A stretch of DNA of 64,000 nucleotides from a virus. Positions within the stretch are counted from its first letter, which is position 1, and each line of letters opens with the position of its first letter. The position numbers and the translations under genes were made by a program. Shown here piece by piece: positions 41,488 to 53,553 of the stretch. The stretch is from IMG/VR virus record IMGVR_UViG_3300022602_000001, one strand, 5' to 3'. The notes under the pieces are model-generated. The model ran no database searches, was not told the origin of the DNA, and saw nothing but the letters and a program-made list of their open reading frames with translations.

Positions 41488-41991
41488 ATGCCAACACAGA
41501 AAGAGCTGGACACAGTTTACATAAACGTTGCAAAAGAAATATCTTCCCTTTCAAAGTGCAGAAGGGCAAAGGTCGGCGCCATAATTGTCAACAACGGCAA
41601 CATAGTGAGCATGTCCTACAACGGCACAATTGCTGGAGAGGACAACTCCTGCGAGGACAAGCAGTACATGTCGGAGGACGCCGGTGGCTGGTTGGATCCA
41701 GAGATGGTTGACGAGATTTGGCCTTACGAGGACTCTGAGGGAAGGTACGCTCTTGTAACAAAGAAGGAGGTGATCCATGCTGAGATGGGGGCAATACTGA
41801 AAGCTGCAAAGTCTGGATACCCAGTTGAAGGATCCACTCTGTACTTGACACTGTCTCCGTGCAAGGACTGCGCAAAGCTGATAATACAGTCGGGGGTGAA
41901 CAGAGTGGTGTACTCTAAGGACTACAGGGACCTTTCTGCTGTTGAGTACTTAAAAAAATTCATACAAATAGACAAGCATGATTTACAGTAA
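41488..41991 (+). CDS. dCMP deaminase
   Basis: C.R.KVGA, YNG, HAE, LSPCKDC zinc motifs. Confidence 0.92.
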   Translation: MPTQKELDTVYINVAKEISSLSKCRRAKVGAIIVNNGNIVSMSYNGTIAGEDNSCEDKQYMSEDAGGWLDPEMVDEIWPYEDSEGRYALVTKKEVIHAEMGAILKAAKSGYPVEGSTLYLTLSPCKDCAKLIIQSGVNRVVYSKDYRDLSAVEYLKKFIQIDKHDLQ

Positions 41992-42613
41992 TGCAACAAG
42001 CGCCTTTGAGTCTCTTTACGGGCGCATAATGTCTGACGGAGAGCTGTTTGCAGACACCAAGGCCCTGTTCAACGAGTCATTTTCTCTGCTGAACCCAAAG
42101 GAGAGAATAATAATGACCCCACAAAGAAAGTTCAGCCAGGACTACGCAGAGTTAGAGTGGAAGTGGTACCTCTCTGGAGACAGGGATGCCACAGAAATTT
42201 CCGAAAGGGCAAAGATGTGGAAGAAGATGATGGTGCCTGGCACATCCAGCGTGGTCAGCAACTACGGCCATTTTTGGAACTATAACGACCAATTAAAAAG
42301 AGCAATAAATGAAATCAAAATCAACCCAGAGACCAGAAGGGCTATCGTCGTTCATTATCTACTACACGAACTGGATCTATATAAATACGATACACCTTGC
42401 AACCTGGCTCTTAACTTTTATGTGAGATCAGGACAATTGGACCTTACCGTCATGGCAAGATCGATTGACATTTGGTTTGGGTTCGGATGCGACCAGTACT
42501 GCTTCTCAAAGCTGATGGACATGGTGTCTGAGCAAACGGGACATCCAGTGGGACAGATGCATTGGCACGTGACAAACCTGCACCTGTACCCCAGGCACTT
42601 TGGTCTACTGTAA
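41978..42613 (+). CDS. Thymidylate-synthase-fold protein, dCMP hydroxymethylase/methylase-like
   Basis: SNYG, TRRA, DTPC (catalytic Cys), RSIDIWFGFGCDQY (Asp at the specificity position), NLHLY. Confidence 0.8.
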   Translation: MIYSNATSAFESLYGRIMSDGELFADTKALFNESFSLLNPKERIIMTPQRKFSQDYAELEWKWYLSGDRDATEISERAKMWKKMMVPGTSSVVSNYGHFWNYNDQLKRAINEIKINPETRRAIVVHYLLHELDLYKYDTPCNLALNFYVRSGQLDLTVMARSIDIWFGFGCDQYCFSKLMDMVSEQTGHPVGQMHWHVTNLHLYPRHFGLL

Positions 42614-44633: not shown

Positions 44634-44816
44634 ATGAAAGAGGAAAAAAGGTTCAACTACGTGGTGGGCTTCTACGCGGACAACGGAGCAGTGCTTCCTT
44701 ACTCTTACGGATCTACTGTGTTTTTTGGCACGGATCAGGGAGCGGAGAGCATGAGAAAGTTCCTGTCCGAAAGAGCAAAAAAGGAGCTGAAAATCTTTAA
44801 ACTAAAAGAGGCATGA
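44634..44816 (+). CDS. Hypothetical protein
   Basis: Operonic ORF overlapping the thyA start. Confidence 0.55.
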   Translation: MKEEKRFNYVVGFYADNGAVLPYSYGSTVFFGTDQGAESMRKFLSERAKKELKIFKLKEA

Positions 44817-45940
44817 ACAGACTAGACCAGGACTACAAAAGTCTACTGAGCGACGTGCTTGTCAGTGGAACTGCAAAGGAGACCAGAAATGGCAAAGTTC
44901 TGAGCGTGTTTGGCAGGCAGATAAGGCACAGAATGAAGGATGGATTTCCAATTATAACAACAAGGAAAATTCACTGGAATTCTGTTGTGGCTGAGCTGCT
45001 GTGGTTCTTGAGAGGGGACACAAACATAAAGTACCTCGTCGACAATGGGTGCAACATTTGGGTTGGAGATGCGTACAAGAAGTACGCAGACCACTGGGGA
45101 AGTCCAGTAGAGGACATAAATTTTGAACTGTACAGAGGGGAGTTCCACCACGAAAAAAGGCTGTTCACAAAGGAGGAGTTCTTGGAAATTGTGAAAGGAA
45201 AGGACTTTTTGTCCTCCAACAACTCTTGGTGGGGAGACATGGGACCAATATATGGAAAGCAGTGGAGGAGGTGGTTTTACGGAAACTGGTGGTACAACGG
45301 CACAAGGCCGATGCCGGAGTCGAAGAACATCGATCAGCTGGCCAATTTGATCACAGAGCTGAAGACGAATCCGGACAGCAGAAGGCTGGTGGTCTCGTCG
45401 TGGAACCCGGGAGAGCTGGACAGAATGGTTTTGCCTCCCTGCCACTACTCCTTTCAAGTCTACACTCGCAAGCTGAGCACGGATGAGAGAAAAAAAATCT
45501 ACGAAGAATTGCACGTTGGTGGGCACGAGATTGAGTTTGACCACTGGCTGGAGGCAAAGTTAGCGACGCACAACATTCCAACCAGGGCCGTGTCCCTCAT
45601 GTACAACGCAAGAAGCCAAGACCTTCCGCTGGGCACTCCGTTCAACATTGCAAGCTACGGACTGCTGCTCAGCATCATTGCAAAGATTGTCAACATGGTG
45701 CCAGACGAGCTCATTGCAAGCATGGGAGACTGCCACATTTACCAGAACCAAGTGGAAGCGGCCATAGAGCAGCTGGACAGAAGCCCGTATGACCTTCCCA
45801 TCCTGATTCACAAAAAAGAAAACAGTTTTTACGAGTCAATTTTTGAGAACATGTCCCTGATTGAGAGCCTGAGTCCAAGCGACTTTCTGCTAGAGAACTA
45901 CGAGAGCCACCCACCAATAAAAATTCCTCTATCAAACTGA
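44813..45940 (+). CDS. thyA: Thymidylate synthase (canonical, dUMP)
   Basis: ELLWFLRG.TN, GPIYG.QWR, PDSRR, LPPCH, RSQDLPLGTPFNIASY, DCHIY motifs. Confidence 0.95.
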   Translation: MNRLDQDYKSLLSDVLVSGTAKETRNGKVLSVFGRQIRHRMKDGFPIITTRKIHWNSVVAELLWFLRGDTNIKYLVDNGCNIWVGDAYKKYADHWGSPVEDINFELYRGEFHHEKRLFTKEEFLEIVKGKDFLSSNNSWWGDMGPIYGKQWRRWFYGNWWYNGTRPMPESKNIDQLANLITELKTNPDSRRLVVSSWNPGELDRMVLPPCHYSFQVYTRKLSTDERKKIYEELHVGGHEIEFDHWLEAKLATHNIPTRAVSLMYNARSQDLPLGTPFNIASYGLLLSIIAKIVNMVPDELIASMGDCHIYQNQVEAAIEQLDRSPYDLPILIHKKENSFYESIFENMSLIESLSPSDFLLENYESHPPIKIPLSN

Positions 45941-48859: not shown

Positions 48860-48915
48860 CAAAAAAACAAACATGAAAAAAATAACAATGCATTAGGTAC
48901 CAAACCTAATGTAAA

Positions 48916-49098
48916 GTGAAAGTAAAAAAACTAAAAAATTCATCCTGCAGCAGAGAATACACAATAAGGATGAAGGGCTACAAAGTGTACTGTACAGTGT
49001 GCAACAGACGAGCAGGAGTGTTCAATGCATACTGTGGAAAGGAGAGCAAAAAACAAAACAGAAACTGGAAAAACTACAGAAAAACAAAATGGAAGTGA
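48916..49098 (+). CDS. Small basic protein with CxxC
   Basis: C-terminal RNWKNYRKTKWK motif typical of small phage proteins. Confidence 0.55.
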   Translation: MKVKKLKNSSCSREYTIRMKGYKVYCTVCNRRAGVFNAYCGKESKKQNRNWKNYRKTKWK

Positions 49099-51060: not shown

Positions 51061-51069
51061 CAAAAATTC

Positions 51070-51143
51070 GGAGTAGTGGTTGAATGGTTTACAACACCGG
51101 CTTGTCGCGCCGTGAGGTGGGGGTTCGAGTCCCCCTTATTCCG
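51070..51143 (+). tRNA. tRNA-Asp(GTC)
   Basis: ggagtag/ttattcc acceptor, G73; ttGTCgc loop. Confidence 0.85.
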
Positions 51144-51160
51144 CCTTGACTTTTTTAAAC

Positions 51161-51237
51161 GTATTCGTATAGGCTCTGTCTCATAAACAGTTGAAACCTT
51201 AACAGGTTACATGAGAGTTCGATTCTCTCCGAATACA
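51161..51237 (+). tRNA. D-armless tRNA-like RNA, anticodon CAT, long variable arm
   Basis: gtattcg/cgaatac acceptor; only 7 nt where the D-arm belongs; ctgt-ctCATaa-acag; gagag-ttcgatt-ctctc. Confidence 0.7.
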
Positions 51238-51410: not shown

Positions 51411-51483
51411 AGCTGGTGGGAGGTAAGGTATCTCGTTGGTCTCATAAGCCAAAATAACCCCGTTCGATTCGGGGACGCAGCAA
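51411..51483 (+). tRNA. tRNA-Met(CAT), initiator-like
   Basis: ttggt-ctCATaa-gccaa; ccccg-ttcgatt-cgggg; mismatched first acceptor pair. Confidence 0.72.
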
Positions 51484-51502
51484 CTAAAGTGAAGTAAAGT
51501 AC

Positions 51503-51757
51503 AATCTAGAGCAGCAGTACCCATAGGGCAACATTGCGTACCCCTGAATTGACAGGCCGTTTATTGAAACAGATAAGCGTGGTGGGATTTCTACCTGCGA
51601 ATGGCCAGTCGCTACTACTGGTGTCTGAGTGGGTGTAATTAACCTTTCCTCCCGAAGTGGGAGGCTTACTGTACGTGCTGGTACAGACAGGGATAATACC
51701 TTGATGGAAGGAGCCGGTTAATTACCGTATTACCGTAGCAGGCTGCTGCTCTAGATT
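51503..51757 (+). ncRNA. Unidentified 255-nt structured ncRNA
   Basis: Perfect 15-bp terminal stem aatctagagcagcag/ctgctgctctagatt; internal 10-bp stem and multiple hairpins; flanked by tRNAs. Confidence 0.75.
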
Positions 51758-51758
51758 T

Positions 51759-51830
51759 GGCGCCGTAGTTCAAAGGCAGAACATTTGGCTCATATCCAAA
51801 AGGTTGAGATCTCAGAATTCTCCGGCGCCA
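51759..51830 (+). tRNA. tRNA-Met/Ile2(CAT)
   Basis: ggcgccg/cggcgcc acceptor; tttgg-ctCATat-ccaaa; atypical T-loop. Confidence 0.8.
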
Positions 51831-51956
51831 CGAAGAGCATGAAGGCCACATGATCGTAGATCCTCTCAGCCTCTCAACGATGCACACTGTAGAGCCAGAC
51901 CGTAGGCTGGATGAGTTGACAACTTACTCACTGACTTTAGAAAAGTTGTAAATTTT

Positions 51957-53091: not shown

Positions 53092-53553
53092 ATGGATAGA
53101 ACATTTAAAACACTGAGCAACAGCGCAGTTGTGGATTTGGTGCCCTACACAAAGCAGTACATTGAAAATTTTCCCGATACTGAAATACTAATAGGGTGCG
53201 ACTCTCAAAACAGAAAAACTGAGACCGTCTATGCAATAGTTGTTGGATTTTACAAGCCAGGAAAGGGCGCGCATGTGGTGTACTCAAGATTCAAAAATCA
53301 AAGAGAGAAGGACAACGTGGGAAGGCTTTTGAACGAGGTGTGGAACTCAGTTCAGGTTGCTGAAGTTTTAAAAAATGAAGTTGGAATCCACACAAAGTGG
53401 ATAGACATAGACCTAAATCCCGACCCCAAGTACAAGTCGAACGCGGCGCTGTCCAGCGCAGTGGGAATAGTAACAGGAATGGGGTACAACGTCAGGCACA
53501 AGGGCAATTCTCCAATAATGACGTACGCAGCAGACTCTCTCGTAAAATTTTAA
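53092..53553 (+). CDS. RNase H-like YkuK-family protein
   Basis: IGCDSQ, RLLNEVW.S, IDIDLN, YAAD motifs. Confidence 0.8.
   Translation: MDRTFKTLSNSAVVDLVPYTKQYIENFPDTEILIGCDSQNRKTETVYAIVVGFYKPGKGAHVVYSRFKNQREKDNVGRLLNEVWNSVQVAEVLKNEVGIHTKWIDIDLNPDPKYKSNAALSSAVGIVTGMGYNVRHKGNSPIMTYAADSLVKF

What the first reader, a model, noticed from the sequence alone, without database searches (positions are those of the whole stretch)
51503..51757. Unidentified 255-nt highly structured ncRNA between two CAT tRNAs
Seen: a perfect 15-bp closing helix; domain 1 with ggcc/ggcc enclosing cgtttat/ataagcg and ggtgg/ctacc hairpins; a ccagt/actgg hairpin; domain 2 with a 10-bp gtaattaacc/ggttaattac helix (51635-44 / 51716-25) leading to a junction with ctccc/gggag and ctgtac/gtacag. 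I could not find RNase P (GAGGAAAGUCC), tmRNA (tRNA-like ends, tag ORF) or intron hallmarks. It abuts the next tRNA, so tRNA processing would release it. Known: large ncRNAs such as GOLLD and ROOL occur in phage tRNA regions. Inference: a possibly new class.
Basis: partly seen in the sequence, partly recalled or inferred. Interest (0 to 1): 0.75.

Follow-up and report, generated by a model that had tools for sequence, protein, structure and literature searches.

The report
Modular structured RNA in phage tRNA operon
A 255-base, very strongly folding RNA-like element sits between two tRNA genes of an uncultured freshwater phage; one sister phage carries a version with the same three-helix core but two completely different side arms, so it is probably a real but very narrowly distributed non-coding RNA of unknown function.

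Summary
The element is the most stable 255-nt segment of the window (z = -4.8 against shuffles; -5.0 SD after GC correction). It lies between two CAU tRNAs, 1 nt from the 5' end of the second. It matches no Rfam 15 family.

One homologue was found, a 202-nt allele at the same position in a sister phage (ENA contig L095, and two JGI fragments, L096 and L097). Only three segments are shared, at 94% identity. They pair with each other into a three-way junction: P1 closing helix, long-range P2 and the base of P3. A conserved hairpin is also shared.

Of six core differences, two keep a pair (G-U to A-U) and two together form one compensatory A-U to G-C change. The other two break the outer end of P1.

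The element is absent from about 90 more distant relatives. Pattern scans of IMG/VR, JGI metagenomes and GTDB genomes, and a BLAST search of GenBank phages, found nothing.

Best reading (0.5): a lineage-specific stable ncRNA released by tRNA processing. Main rival: a neutral, fast-evolving palindromic spacer. With two alleles, covariation cannot be tested statistically. Interest is moderate.

The parts
51412..51482 (+). Upstream tRNA (anticodon CAU), non-canonical
   Evidence: Rfam tRNA model, 31.3 bits. Orthologues at 92-95% identity in L009 and L016-L019. L095 has a different tRNA here.
51489..51502 (+). Conserved single-stranded 5' leader of the element
   Evidence: 13 of 14 nt identical in L095, although the tRNA just upstream is replaced.
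51503..51518 (+). P1, 5' strand of the closing helix (pairs with 51742-51757)
   Evidence: 15 perfect pairs plus one U-G. In L095 the inner 11 bp are identical and positions 4-5 are mismatched.
51519..51530 (+). P2 and P2b, 5' strands (pair with 51629-51634 and 51622-51626)
   Evidence: Conserved in L095 and part of the L095 MFE fold. Enforcing these helices in the window costs only 1-2 kcal/mol. Two pairs change G-U to A-U.
51534..51602 (+).
   Evidence: 69 nt here against an unrelated 54 nt in L095. No match elsewhere. The V1 region, folded together with the adjacent conserved hairpin (51531-51622), is only weakly structured, z = -1.5.
51603..51639 (+). Conserved middle segment S2: hairpin Hc (51605-51621, 7-nt loop), the 3' strands of P2b and P2, and the 5' strand of the P3 base
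   Evidence: 35 of 37 nt identical in L095. Both differences keep pairing.
51640..51720 (+).
   Evidence: Replaced by an unrelated hairpin of about 50 nt in L095 and L096. In the window it is strongly and uniquely folded: z = -4.35, and the MFE structure holds 41% of the ensemble.
51721..51741 (+). 3' strand of the P3 base and junction J3/1, with an 8-nt tandem duplication (51721-28 and 51729-36)
   Evidence: Read directly. L095 has a single copy. Bases 51735-39 are complementary to the Hc loop (51611-15). This is a possible pseudoknot; it is invariant in both alleles, so untested.
51742..51757 (+). P1, 3' strand of the closing helix
51759..51830 (+). Downstream tRNA (anticodon CAU) with an unusual T arm; its 5' end would set the element's 3' end
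   Evidence: Rfam tRNA model, 53.2 bits. Identical in L095 and 78% identical in L024.

Best explanation
The element is a lineage-specific structured non-coding RNA encoded inside the phage's polycistronic tRNA operon.

Inferred mechanism:
- It is transcribed with the tRNAs on the + strand.
- RNase P cleavage at the 5' end of the next tRNA (51758/51759) creates its 3' end.
- 3' maturation of the upstream tRNA, plus trimming of a short conserved leader, creates its 5' end.
- The 16-bp terminal helix P1 then protects both ends, so a stable RNA of roughly 255-270 nt accumulates.

Its functional core is a three-way junction. P1 stacks on the long-range helix P2/P2b, and P3 branches off. A conserved 7-nt-loop hairpin (Hc) may pair with the junction strand J3/1. 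The two large arms on P2 and P3 are peripheral and interchangeable.

The most likely role is a trans-acting stable RNA that binds a host or phage factor through the conserved core, for example as a decoy or sponge during infection. That last step is a guess.

Shown: the fold statistics, the position, the shared core and the swapped arms. Inferred: expression, processing and any function.
For: - Exceptional predicted stability.
- All genes and tRNAs of the window are on the + strand. No + strand terminator-like site lies beside the element, so co-transcription is expected.
- It ends 1 nt from a tRNA 5' end.
- A homologue sits at the same position in a sister phage: covariance model R1 scores 45.9 bits, E = 4e-15, on L095:3878-4079. 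The same allele was seen again in an independent JGI sample (L096, L097).
- Only three segments are conserved (89 of 95 nt), and these are the ones that pair with one another as P1, P2, P2b and P3.
- On 37 core pairs, 97.3% of cells are paired, against 28-44% when partners are slid by 1-3 columns. There are two G-U/A-U changes and one double A-U to G-C change.
- The boundaries of the replaced V2 block fall at complementary positions of P3, so a whole arm was exchanged while the helix was kept.
- No plausible ORF.
- Precedent: other phage ncRNAs of unknown function lie near tRNA islands (PMC12286853).
Against: - Only two alleles, from very close relatives (flanks 97-99% identical). Core conservation could therefore simply be recent common ancestry.
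- The shuffle control is uninformative (247 of 500).
- The compensatory pair sits at the edge of the swapped arm and may have arrived with it.
- Two of the six core differences break pairs 4 and 5 of P1 in L095.
- The element is absent from about 90 related phage contigs, including the closest ones. The same intergenic spot there holds a short spacer (L017), an endonuclease-like ORF (L009) or an unstructured spacer (L024, z = -0.84).
- Helices are nearly all perfect Watson-Crick, and the - strand folds equally well, as expected for young DNA palindromes.
- There are no expression data, and no partner protein gene is evident in the window.
Confidence: 0.5

Rival explanations
1. Neutral or selfish palindromic spacer. 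The element is a fast-evolving stretch of nested DNA palindromes that grew in a recombination-prone inter-tRNA spacer, for example by template switching or by repair after homing-endonuclease cuts. This would resemble the intervening sequences that expand rRNA helices. It is transcribed and merely tolerated, because it folds on itself and does not disturb tRNA maturation.
For: - Restricted to one small lineage and absent from about 90 relatives.
- The site is a hot spot: endonuclease-type ORFs sit in or beside the arrays of L009, L002 and L094, against a short spacer in L017.
- The arms are replaced wholesale between 97-99% identical genomes.
- Helices are almost all perfect Watson-Crick, and both strands fold equally well.
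- There is an 8-nt tandem duplication at the base of V2.
- The outer P1 pairs are broken in L095.
Against: - No second copy in the window, and no copy with the same terminal repeats in IMG/VR, JGI metagenomes or GTDB genomes.
- No target-site duplication.
- The conserved islands coincide with mutually pairing strands, and four of six changes keep pairing.
- The core is somewhat more diverged than the flanks (6 of 95 against about 8 of 371 positions). This fits an older allele whose core was retained while the arms were lost.
Confidence: 0.28
2. Cis-acting processing module. P1, stacked on P2 into a helix of about 22 bp, acts like the processing stalk of an rRNA operon. A double-strand-specific RNase cuts it. 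This separates the upstream and downstream parts of the tRNA precursor, or tunes maturation of the unusual CAU tRNA that follows. The excised RNA itself has no further role.
For: - The terminal helix brings the 3' end of one tRNA next to the 5' end of the following one, and the element is flush with that tRNA.
- P1 and P2 are contiguous on the 5' strand.
- The arms can vary freely while the base helices stay.
- The downstream tRNA has an atypical T arm and is missed by ARAGORN.
Against: - The orthologous tRNA in L024 is preceded by an unstructured 140-nt spacer. Other arrays have spacers of 4-10 nt, so no such module is needed in general.
- A conserved internal hairpin and junction are not explained by this reading.
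Confidence: 0.12
3. A strongly diverged or degenerate member of a known RNA class that Rfam models miss. Candidates are a self-cleaving ribozyme, a Y-RNA-like RNA, a 6S-like RNA, an intron remnant or a transposon-associated guide RNA.
For: - Relatives carry other accessory RNAs next to their arrays, such as tmRNA in L007, L013 and L014.
- The modular pattern of a conserved stem with a variable module is reminiscent of Y RNAs (own knowledge).
Against: - No match at E <= 10 for either allele.
- ARAGORN finds no tmRNA.
- Among the 41 + strand ORFs scanned against Pfam (most of the large ones), none is a reverse transcriptase, a TROVE/Ro protein or a TnpB/IscB protein.
- The flanking tRNAs are complete, so the element is not an intron in them.
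Confidence: 0.05

Closest known systems
GOLLD and ROOL RNAs (large ornate phage/prophage ncRNAs)
   Same: Phage-encoded, often beside or within tRNA islands, highly structured, function unknown. One GOLLD was first seen downstream of a Met tRNA (PMC12286853).
   Different: Those are about 580 to more than 800 nt, widely distributed, and supported by covariation. This element is 202-255 nt, matches neither Rfam model even at E <= 10, and is known from a single small lineage.
Phage T4 tRNA-region stable RNAs, species 1 and 2 (RNA C and D) (own knowledge, not checked here)
   Same: Small stable RNAs of unknown function, co-transcribed with phage tRNAs and cut out by the tRNA-processing machinery. 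That is the mechanism proposed here.
   Different: About 120-140 nt, from a different phage group. No sequence or structural comparison could be made with these tools. No modular arm exchange has been described for them.
Intervening sequences (IVS) of bacterial 23S rRNA helices (own knowledge)
   Same: Extra stem-loops at the tips of conserved helices. They are present, absent or unrelated in sequence between close strains, as V1 and V2 are here.
   Different: IVSs sit in an essential RNA of known function. Here the host scaffold itself is of unknown function and narrowly distributed.
Y RNAs / bacterial YrlA (own knowledge plus Rfam scan)
   Same: Terminal helix formed by the 5' and 3' ends. 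Conserved stem with a variable module. Some are phage-encoded near tRNAs.
   Different: No Rfam match. No Ro/TROVE gene among the ORFs scanned. There is no tRNA-like module inside the element.

Membership tests
Bacterial RNase P RNA | Match to the type A or B covariance model, including the conserved P4 core | tested here: not met
   No Rfam hit at E <= 10 for either allele.
tmRNA | tRNA-like ends plus a tag reading frame | tested here: not met
   ARAGORN finds none in the window, although it finds tmRNA in the relatives L007, L013 and L014. The only Rfam tmRNA hit is an 8-bit fragment elsewhere.
Group I intron in a tRNA gene | Interrupts a tRNA (anticodon loop) and matches the group I core | tested here: not met
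   Both flanking tRNAs are complete end to end in the tRNA model. There is no Intron_gpI match.
GOLLD / ROOL | Match to the conserved core of the family models; size above 500 nt | tested here: not met
   No match in the 831-nt region or in the element. Length is 202-255 nt.
Self-cleaving ribozymes next to phage tRNAs (HDV-like, hammerhead and others) | Match to a ribozyme covariance model or its conserved junction motifs | tested here: not met
   No Rfam ribozyme family at E <= 10. The junction strands are 0, 0 and 8-16 nt, which does not fit a hammerhead core. Catalysis itself cannot be tested here.
MITE / non-autonomous transposon | Terminal inverted repeats | tested here: met
   15-nt perfect inverted repeat at the ends.
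MITE / non-autonomous transposon | Target-site duplication and multiple copies | tested here: not met
   No duplication at the flanks. There is a single copy in the window. No copy with these termini in IMG/VR, JGI metagenomes or GTDB genomes. The rest of the phage genome was not available.
Retron ncRNA or transposon guide RNA | Adjacent reverse transcriptase, or TnpB/IscB gene | tested here: not met
   Neighbours are tRNAs, two small ORFs and an RNaseH_like (PF04308) gene. No such domain was found in the ORFs scanned.
Structured ncRNA in general (evolutionary criterion) | Statistically supported covariation across homologues | tested here: inconclusive
   Two alleles only: one double change and two one-sided changes in 37 pairs. 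The shuffle control gives 247 of 500.

The most novel reading that the evidence does not exclude
A new family of modular phage RNAs. A conserved, possibly pseudoknotted three-way-junction core would be released from the tRNA precursor and would display interchangeable arms. The arms would be exchanged between co-circulating strains under diversifying pressure, for example as decoys for host RNA-targeting defences. Alternatively, the core itself could be a new catalytic or processing RNA.
Probability: 0.15. Interest if true: 0.75.

Novelty: new variant of a known kind. Interest (0 to 1): 0.45.

Why it matters
Phage tRNA islands are known to hide ncRNAs whose functions are still unknown, such as GOLLD, ROOL and the T4 stable RNAs. 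This element would add a small example in freshwater phages related to a Flavobacterium phage. Unusually, nature has already done a domain-swap experiment on it: the same core carries unrelated arms in nearly identical genomes. That points directly to the part worth testing and gives a compact construct for structure probing. If it is only a neutral palindromic expansion, it is still a clean example of how hairpin arms are gained and replaced inside transcribed spacers.

Tried and rejected
Searches that found nothing:
- Rfam at gathering score on the window, and at E <= 10 on the 831-nt region, on the element and on the L095 allele.
- GenBank phages, with the window region and with the L095 region. 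The only hit was an 83% match of 54 nt inside the upstream tRNA.
- IMG/VR exact or degenerate patterns: 30-mer of V2 (16), upstream tRNA 33-mer (39), terminal repeats with a gap (52), middle segment as an exact 24-mer (79), its purine/pyrimidine-coded form (100), and the 3' segment (101).
- JGI metagenome contigs: V2 pattern (54) and terminal repeats (60).
- GTDB genome contigs: the same two patterns (58, 59).
- blastn, nhmmer and collinear three-segment HMM search on up to 97 related loci, 1.6 Mb.
- Covariance models R1 and R2 on all loci, and R1 on the whole records of four related IMG/VR contigs and of phage immuto.
- A filters-off search with R2 failed technically.

Candidates considered and dropped:
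- Syntenic spacers in L002 (222 nt, z = -3.3, own 10-bp closing helix) and L024 (140 nt, z = -0.84) share no sequence or model match, so they are not treated as homologues.
- Coding potential: only stop-to-stop frames of 77 aa or less, without support.
- The exact proteins of the window occur on short JGI and Logan contigs that could not be retrieved.
- A bacterial-genome search with the RNA model was not possible, because no bacterial handle was available.

Full report
CONTEXT. The window is a phage. All large ORFs and all tRNAs lie on the + strand. It has myovirus tail genes, a replication module, GroEL, nucleotide metabolism genes and glycosyltransferases. The closest cultured relative is Flavobacterium phage immuto (DNA polymerase 54% identical). 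That phage has no tRNA array at the syntenic place. The array in the window spans about 48.8-53.0 kb and is followed by an RNaseH_like (PF04308) gene.

THE OBSERVATION.
- The + strand folds to -100.7 kcal/mol, z = -4.81. The - strand has z = -5.47, so strand assignment rests on context.
- Against all 255-nt windows of the 64 kb, the element is the top outlier after GC correction (-5.0 SD; the next independent region is -3.2 SD).
- The flanking CAU tRNAs are found by the Rfam tRNA model (31.3 and 53.2 bits) but not by ARAGORN.
- One nucleotide separates the element from the second tRNA.
- No Rfam family matches, even at E <= 10.
- There is no credible ORF, and no + strand terminator-like site beside the element.

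SEARCH FOR RELATIVES. Relatives were fetched through a virion protein and through the RNaseH_like gene that always follows these arrays. This gave 93 loci, 1.56 Mb in all. None contains the element by blastn, nhmmer or a covariance model of the window sequence.

The flanking tRNAs do have orthologues, so the site can be compared across relatives:
- L017 has a spacer of about 55 nt there.
- L009 has an 810-bp AT-rich endonuclease-like ORF inserted in that spacer.
- L014 has two CAU tRNAs 4 nt apart.
- L024, which has the orthologue of the downstream tRNA, has an unstructured 140-nt spacer.
- L002 has a 222-nt structured spacer with its own 10-bp closing helix but no similarity to the element.

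The site is therefore a variable hot spot, and the element is lineage-specific. Pattern scans of IMG/VR, JGI metagenomes and GTDB genomes found nothing.

THE HOMOLOGUE. The exact proteins of the window occur on short metagenome contigs. A cluster mate of the 108-aa ORF just downstream led to L095 (ENA, 5250 bp) and L096 (JGI). Model R1 hits L095:3878-4079 (45.9 bits, E = 4e-15) and the 5' end of L096. L097, from the same JGI sample as L096, carries the 5' half. L096 and L097 are identical to L095 where they overlap.

The window and L095 are 96-99% identical around the locus, except for three replaced blocks:
- the upstream tRNA;
- V1 (51534-51602; 69 nt against an unrelated 54 nt);
- V2 (51640-51720; 81 nt against an unrelated 50 nt or so).

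Between these blocks lie conserved islands: the leader plus element positions 1-31, positions 101-137, and the 3' segment from about position 227 (the second copy of an 8-nt tandem repeat) to 255. Together these are 89 of 95 nt identical.

THE CONSERVED CORE. The islands pair with each other as follows.
- P1: 1-16 with 240-255.
- P2: 17-22 with 127-132.
- P2b: 24-28 with 120-124.
- Hc: hairpin 103-119 with a 7-nt loop.
- P3 base: 133-137 with 219-223, or with the duplicated copy 227-231.

This fold is the MFE of the L095 allele. In the window it costs only 1-2 kcal/mol more than the MFE. The 5' strands of P1 and P2 are contiguous, and P3 follows the 3' strand of P2 directly. A junction strand of 8 nt (L095) or 16 nt (window) is left over. 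The window's longer strand comes from an 8-nt tandem duplication. Five bases of the Hc loop are complementary to this junction strand. This could form a pseudoknot, but both sides are invariant, so it is untested.

On 37 core pairs, 97.3% of cells are paired, against 28-44% with slid partners. Two pairs change G-U to A-U, one changes A-U to G-C on both sides, and two outer P1 pairs are broken in L095. With two sequences the shuffle control is uninformative. The double change lies at the edge of the swapped arm and may have travelled with it.

THE ARMS. V2 of the window is very well defined (z = -4.35; the MFE structure holds 41% of the ensemble). V2 of L095 is moderately structured (z = -2.0). 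The V1 regions, each folded together with the adjacent conserved hairpin, are weakly structured (z = -1.5 and -0.6). None of the arms matches anything else in the window or in the loci. Model R2, built on the shared core, finds only the window, L095, L096 and L097. A three-segment HMM search gives the same result. Degenerate scans of IMG/VR for the core segments are also negative. The L095 allele matches no Rfam family either.

INTERPRETATION. Position and orientation make transcription with the tRNAs very likely. RNase P cleavage of the next tRNA would define the element's 3' end. These are inferences from general tRNA-operon biology, not data.

In favour of a real RNA with a functional core and peripheral arms: the conserved islands are exactly the mutually pairing strands, most core changes keep pairing, and a whole arm was exchanged at complementary positions of P3.

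In favour of a young, neutral palindromic expansion in a recombination hot spot: the distribution is extremely narrow, the helices are near-perfect Watson-Crick, both strands fold equally well, there is a tandem duplication, the outer P1 pairs are broken in L095, and homing-endonuclease genes lie in neighbouring arrays.

My weights are:
- stable trans-acting ncRNA, 0.50;
- neutral or selfish spacer, 0.28;
- cis-acting processing module, 0.12;
- diverged known class, 0.05;
- other, 0.05.

COMPARISON AND NOVELTY. By kind, the element resembles the ncRNAs of unknown function found in phage tRNA regions: GOLLD and ROOL and the T4 stable RNAs (own knowledge). It is a member of none of the tested families. 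The exchange of arms on a fixed core is the unusual feature.

Noticed in passing
window 51831-51956; L082:2428-2489: The 126-nt spacer between the second CAU tRNA and tRNA-Thr is 98% identical in L095. Its last 62 nt are 80% identical to a stretch in the distant contig L082, with apparently compensatory changes in two small hairpins. The whole spacer is not globally structured (z = +1.05).
   Followed up: partly
window 53092-53553, and the match position in loci L014-L093: An RNaseH_like (PF04308, YkuK/DUF458) gene lies next to the tRNA array, within about 100 nt downstream of its last tRNA, in the window, L002, L009 and L017. In L043, L026 and L014 more tRNAs (in L014 also a tmRNA) follow the gene. 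It has hundreds of metagenomic relatives. It may be linked to array function.
   Followed up: partly
L007:9111-9500, L013:544-901, L014:11397-11820: Related phages carry tmRNA genes next to their arrays or the structural gene. The window has none.
   Followed up: no
L002:5886-6404, L009:7785-8594, L094:272-997: Free-standing endonuclease-type ORFs (GIY-YIG/NUMOD3 in L002 and L094; no Pfam family in L009) are inserted in or beside the tRNA arrays of relatives. In L009 and L002 the insert is between the CAU tRNAs. L017 shows the empty site for the L009 insert.
   Followed up: partly
window 51759-51830; L024:8911-8982: The CAU tRNA after the element has an atypical T arm, with no TTCGA-type loop. 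ARAGORN misses it, but it scores 53 bits with Rfam. The odd T arm is conserved in L024 and L095.
   Followed up: no
window 51062-51236 and 48872-49076; L095:200-1057: Between the window and the near-identical L095, whole blocks of the array are present or absent. tRNA-Asp plus a tRNA-like gene and a 205-nt block occur only in the window. An 860-nt block with two ORFs occurs only in L095.
   Followed up: no
L096:1 and L097:1373 (JGI sample 3300045434): Two contigs of one sample end inside the conserved middle segment of the element. This is what an assembler does when several alleles of the arms coexist.
   Followed up: no
window 41488-42613 and 44813-45940: A dCMP deaminase sits next to a short thymidylate-synthase-like gene, and a second, full-length thymidylate synthase lies 2 kb further on. 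Several glycosyltransferases lie at 57-61 kb. This may be a DNA hypermodification set.
   Followed up: no
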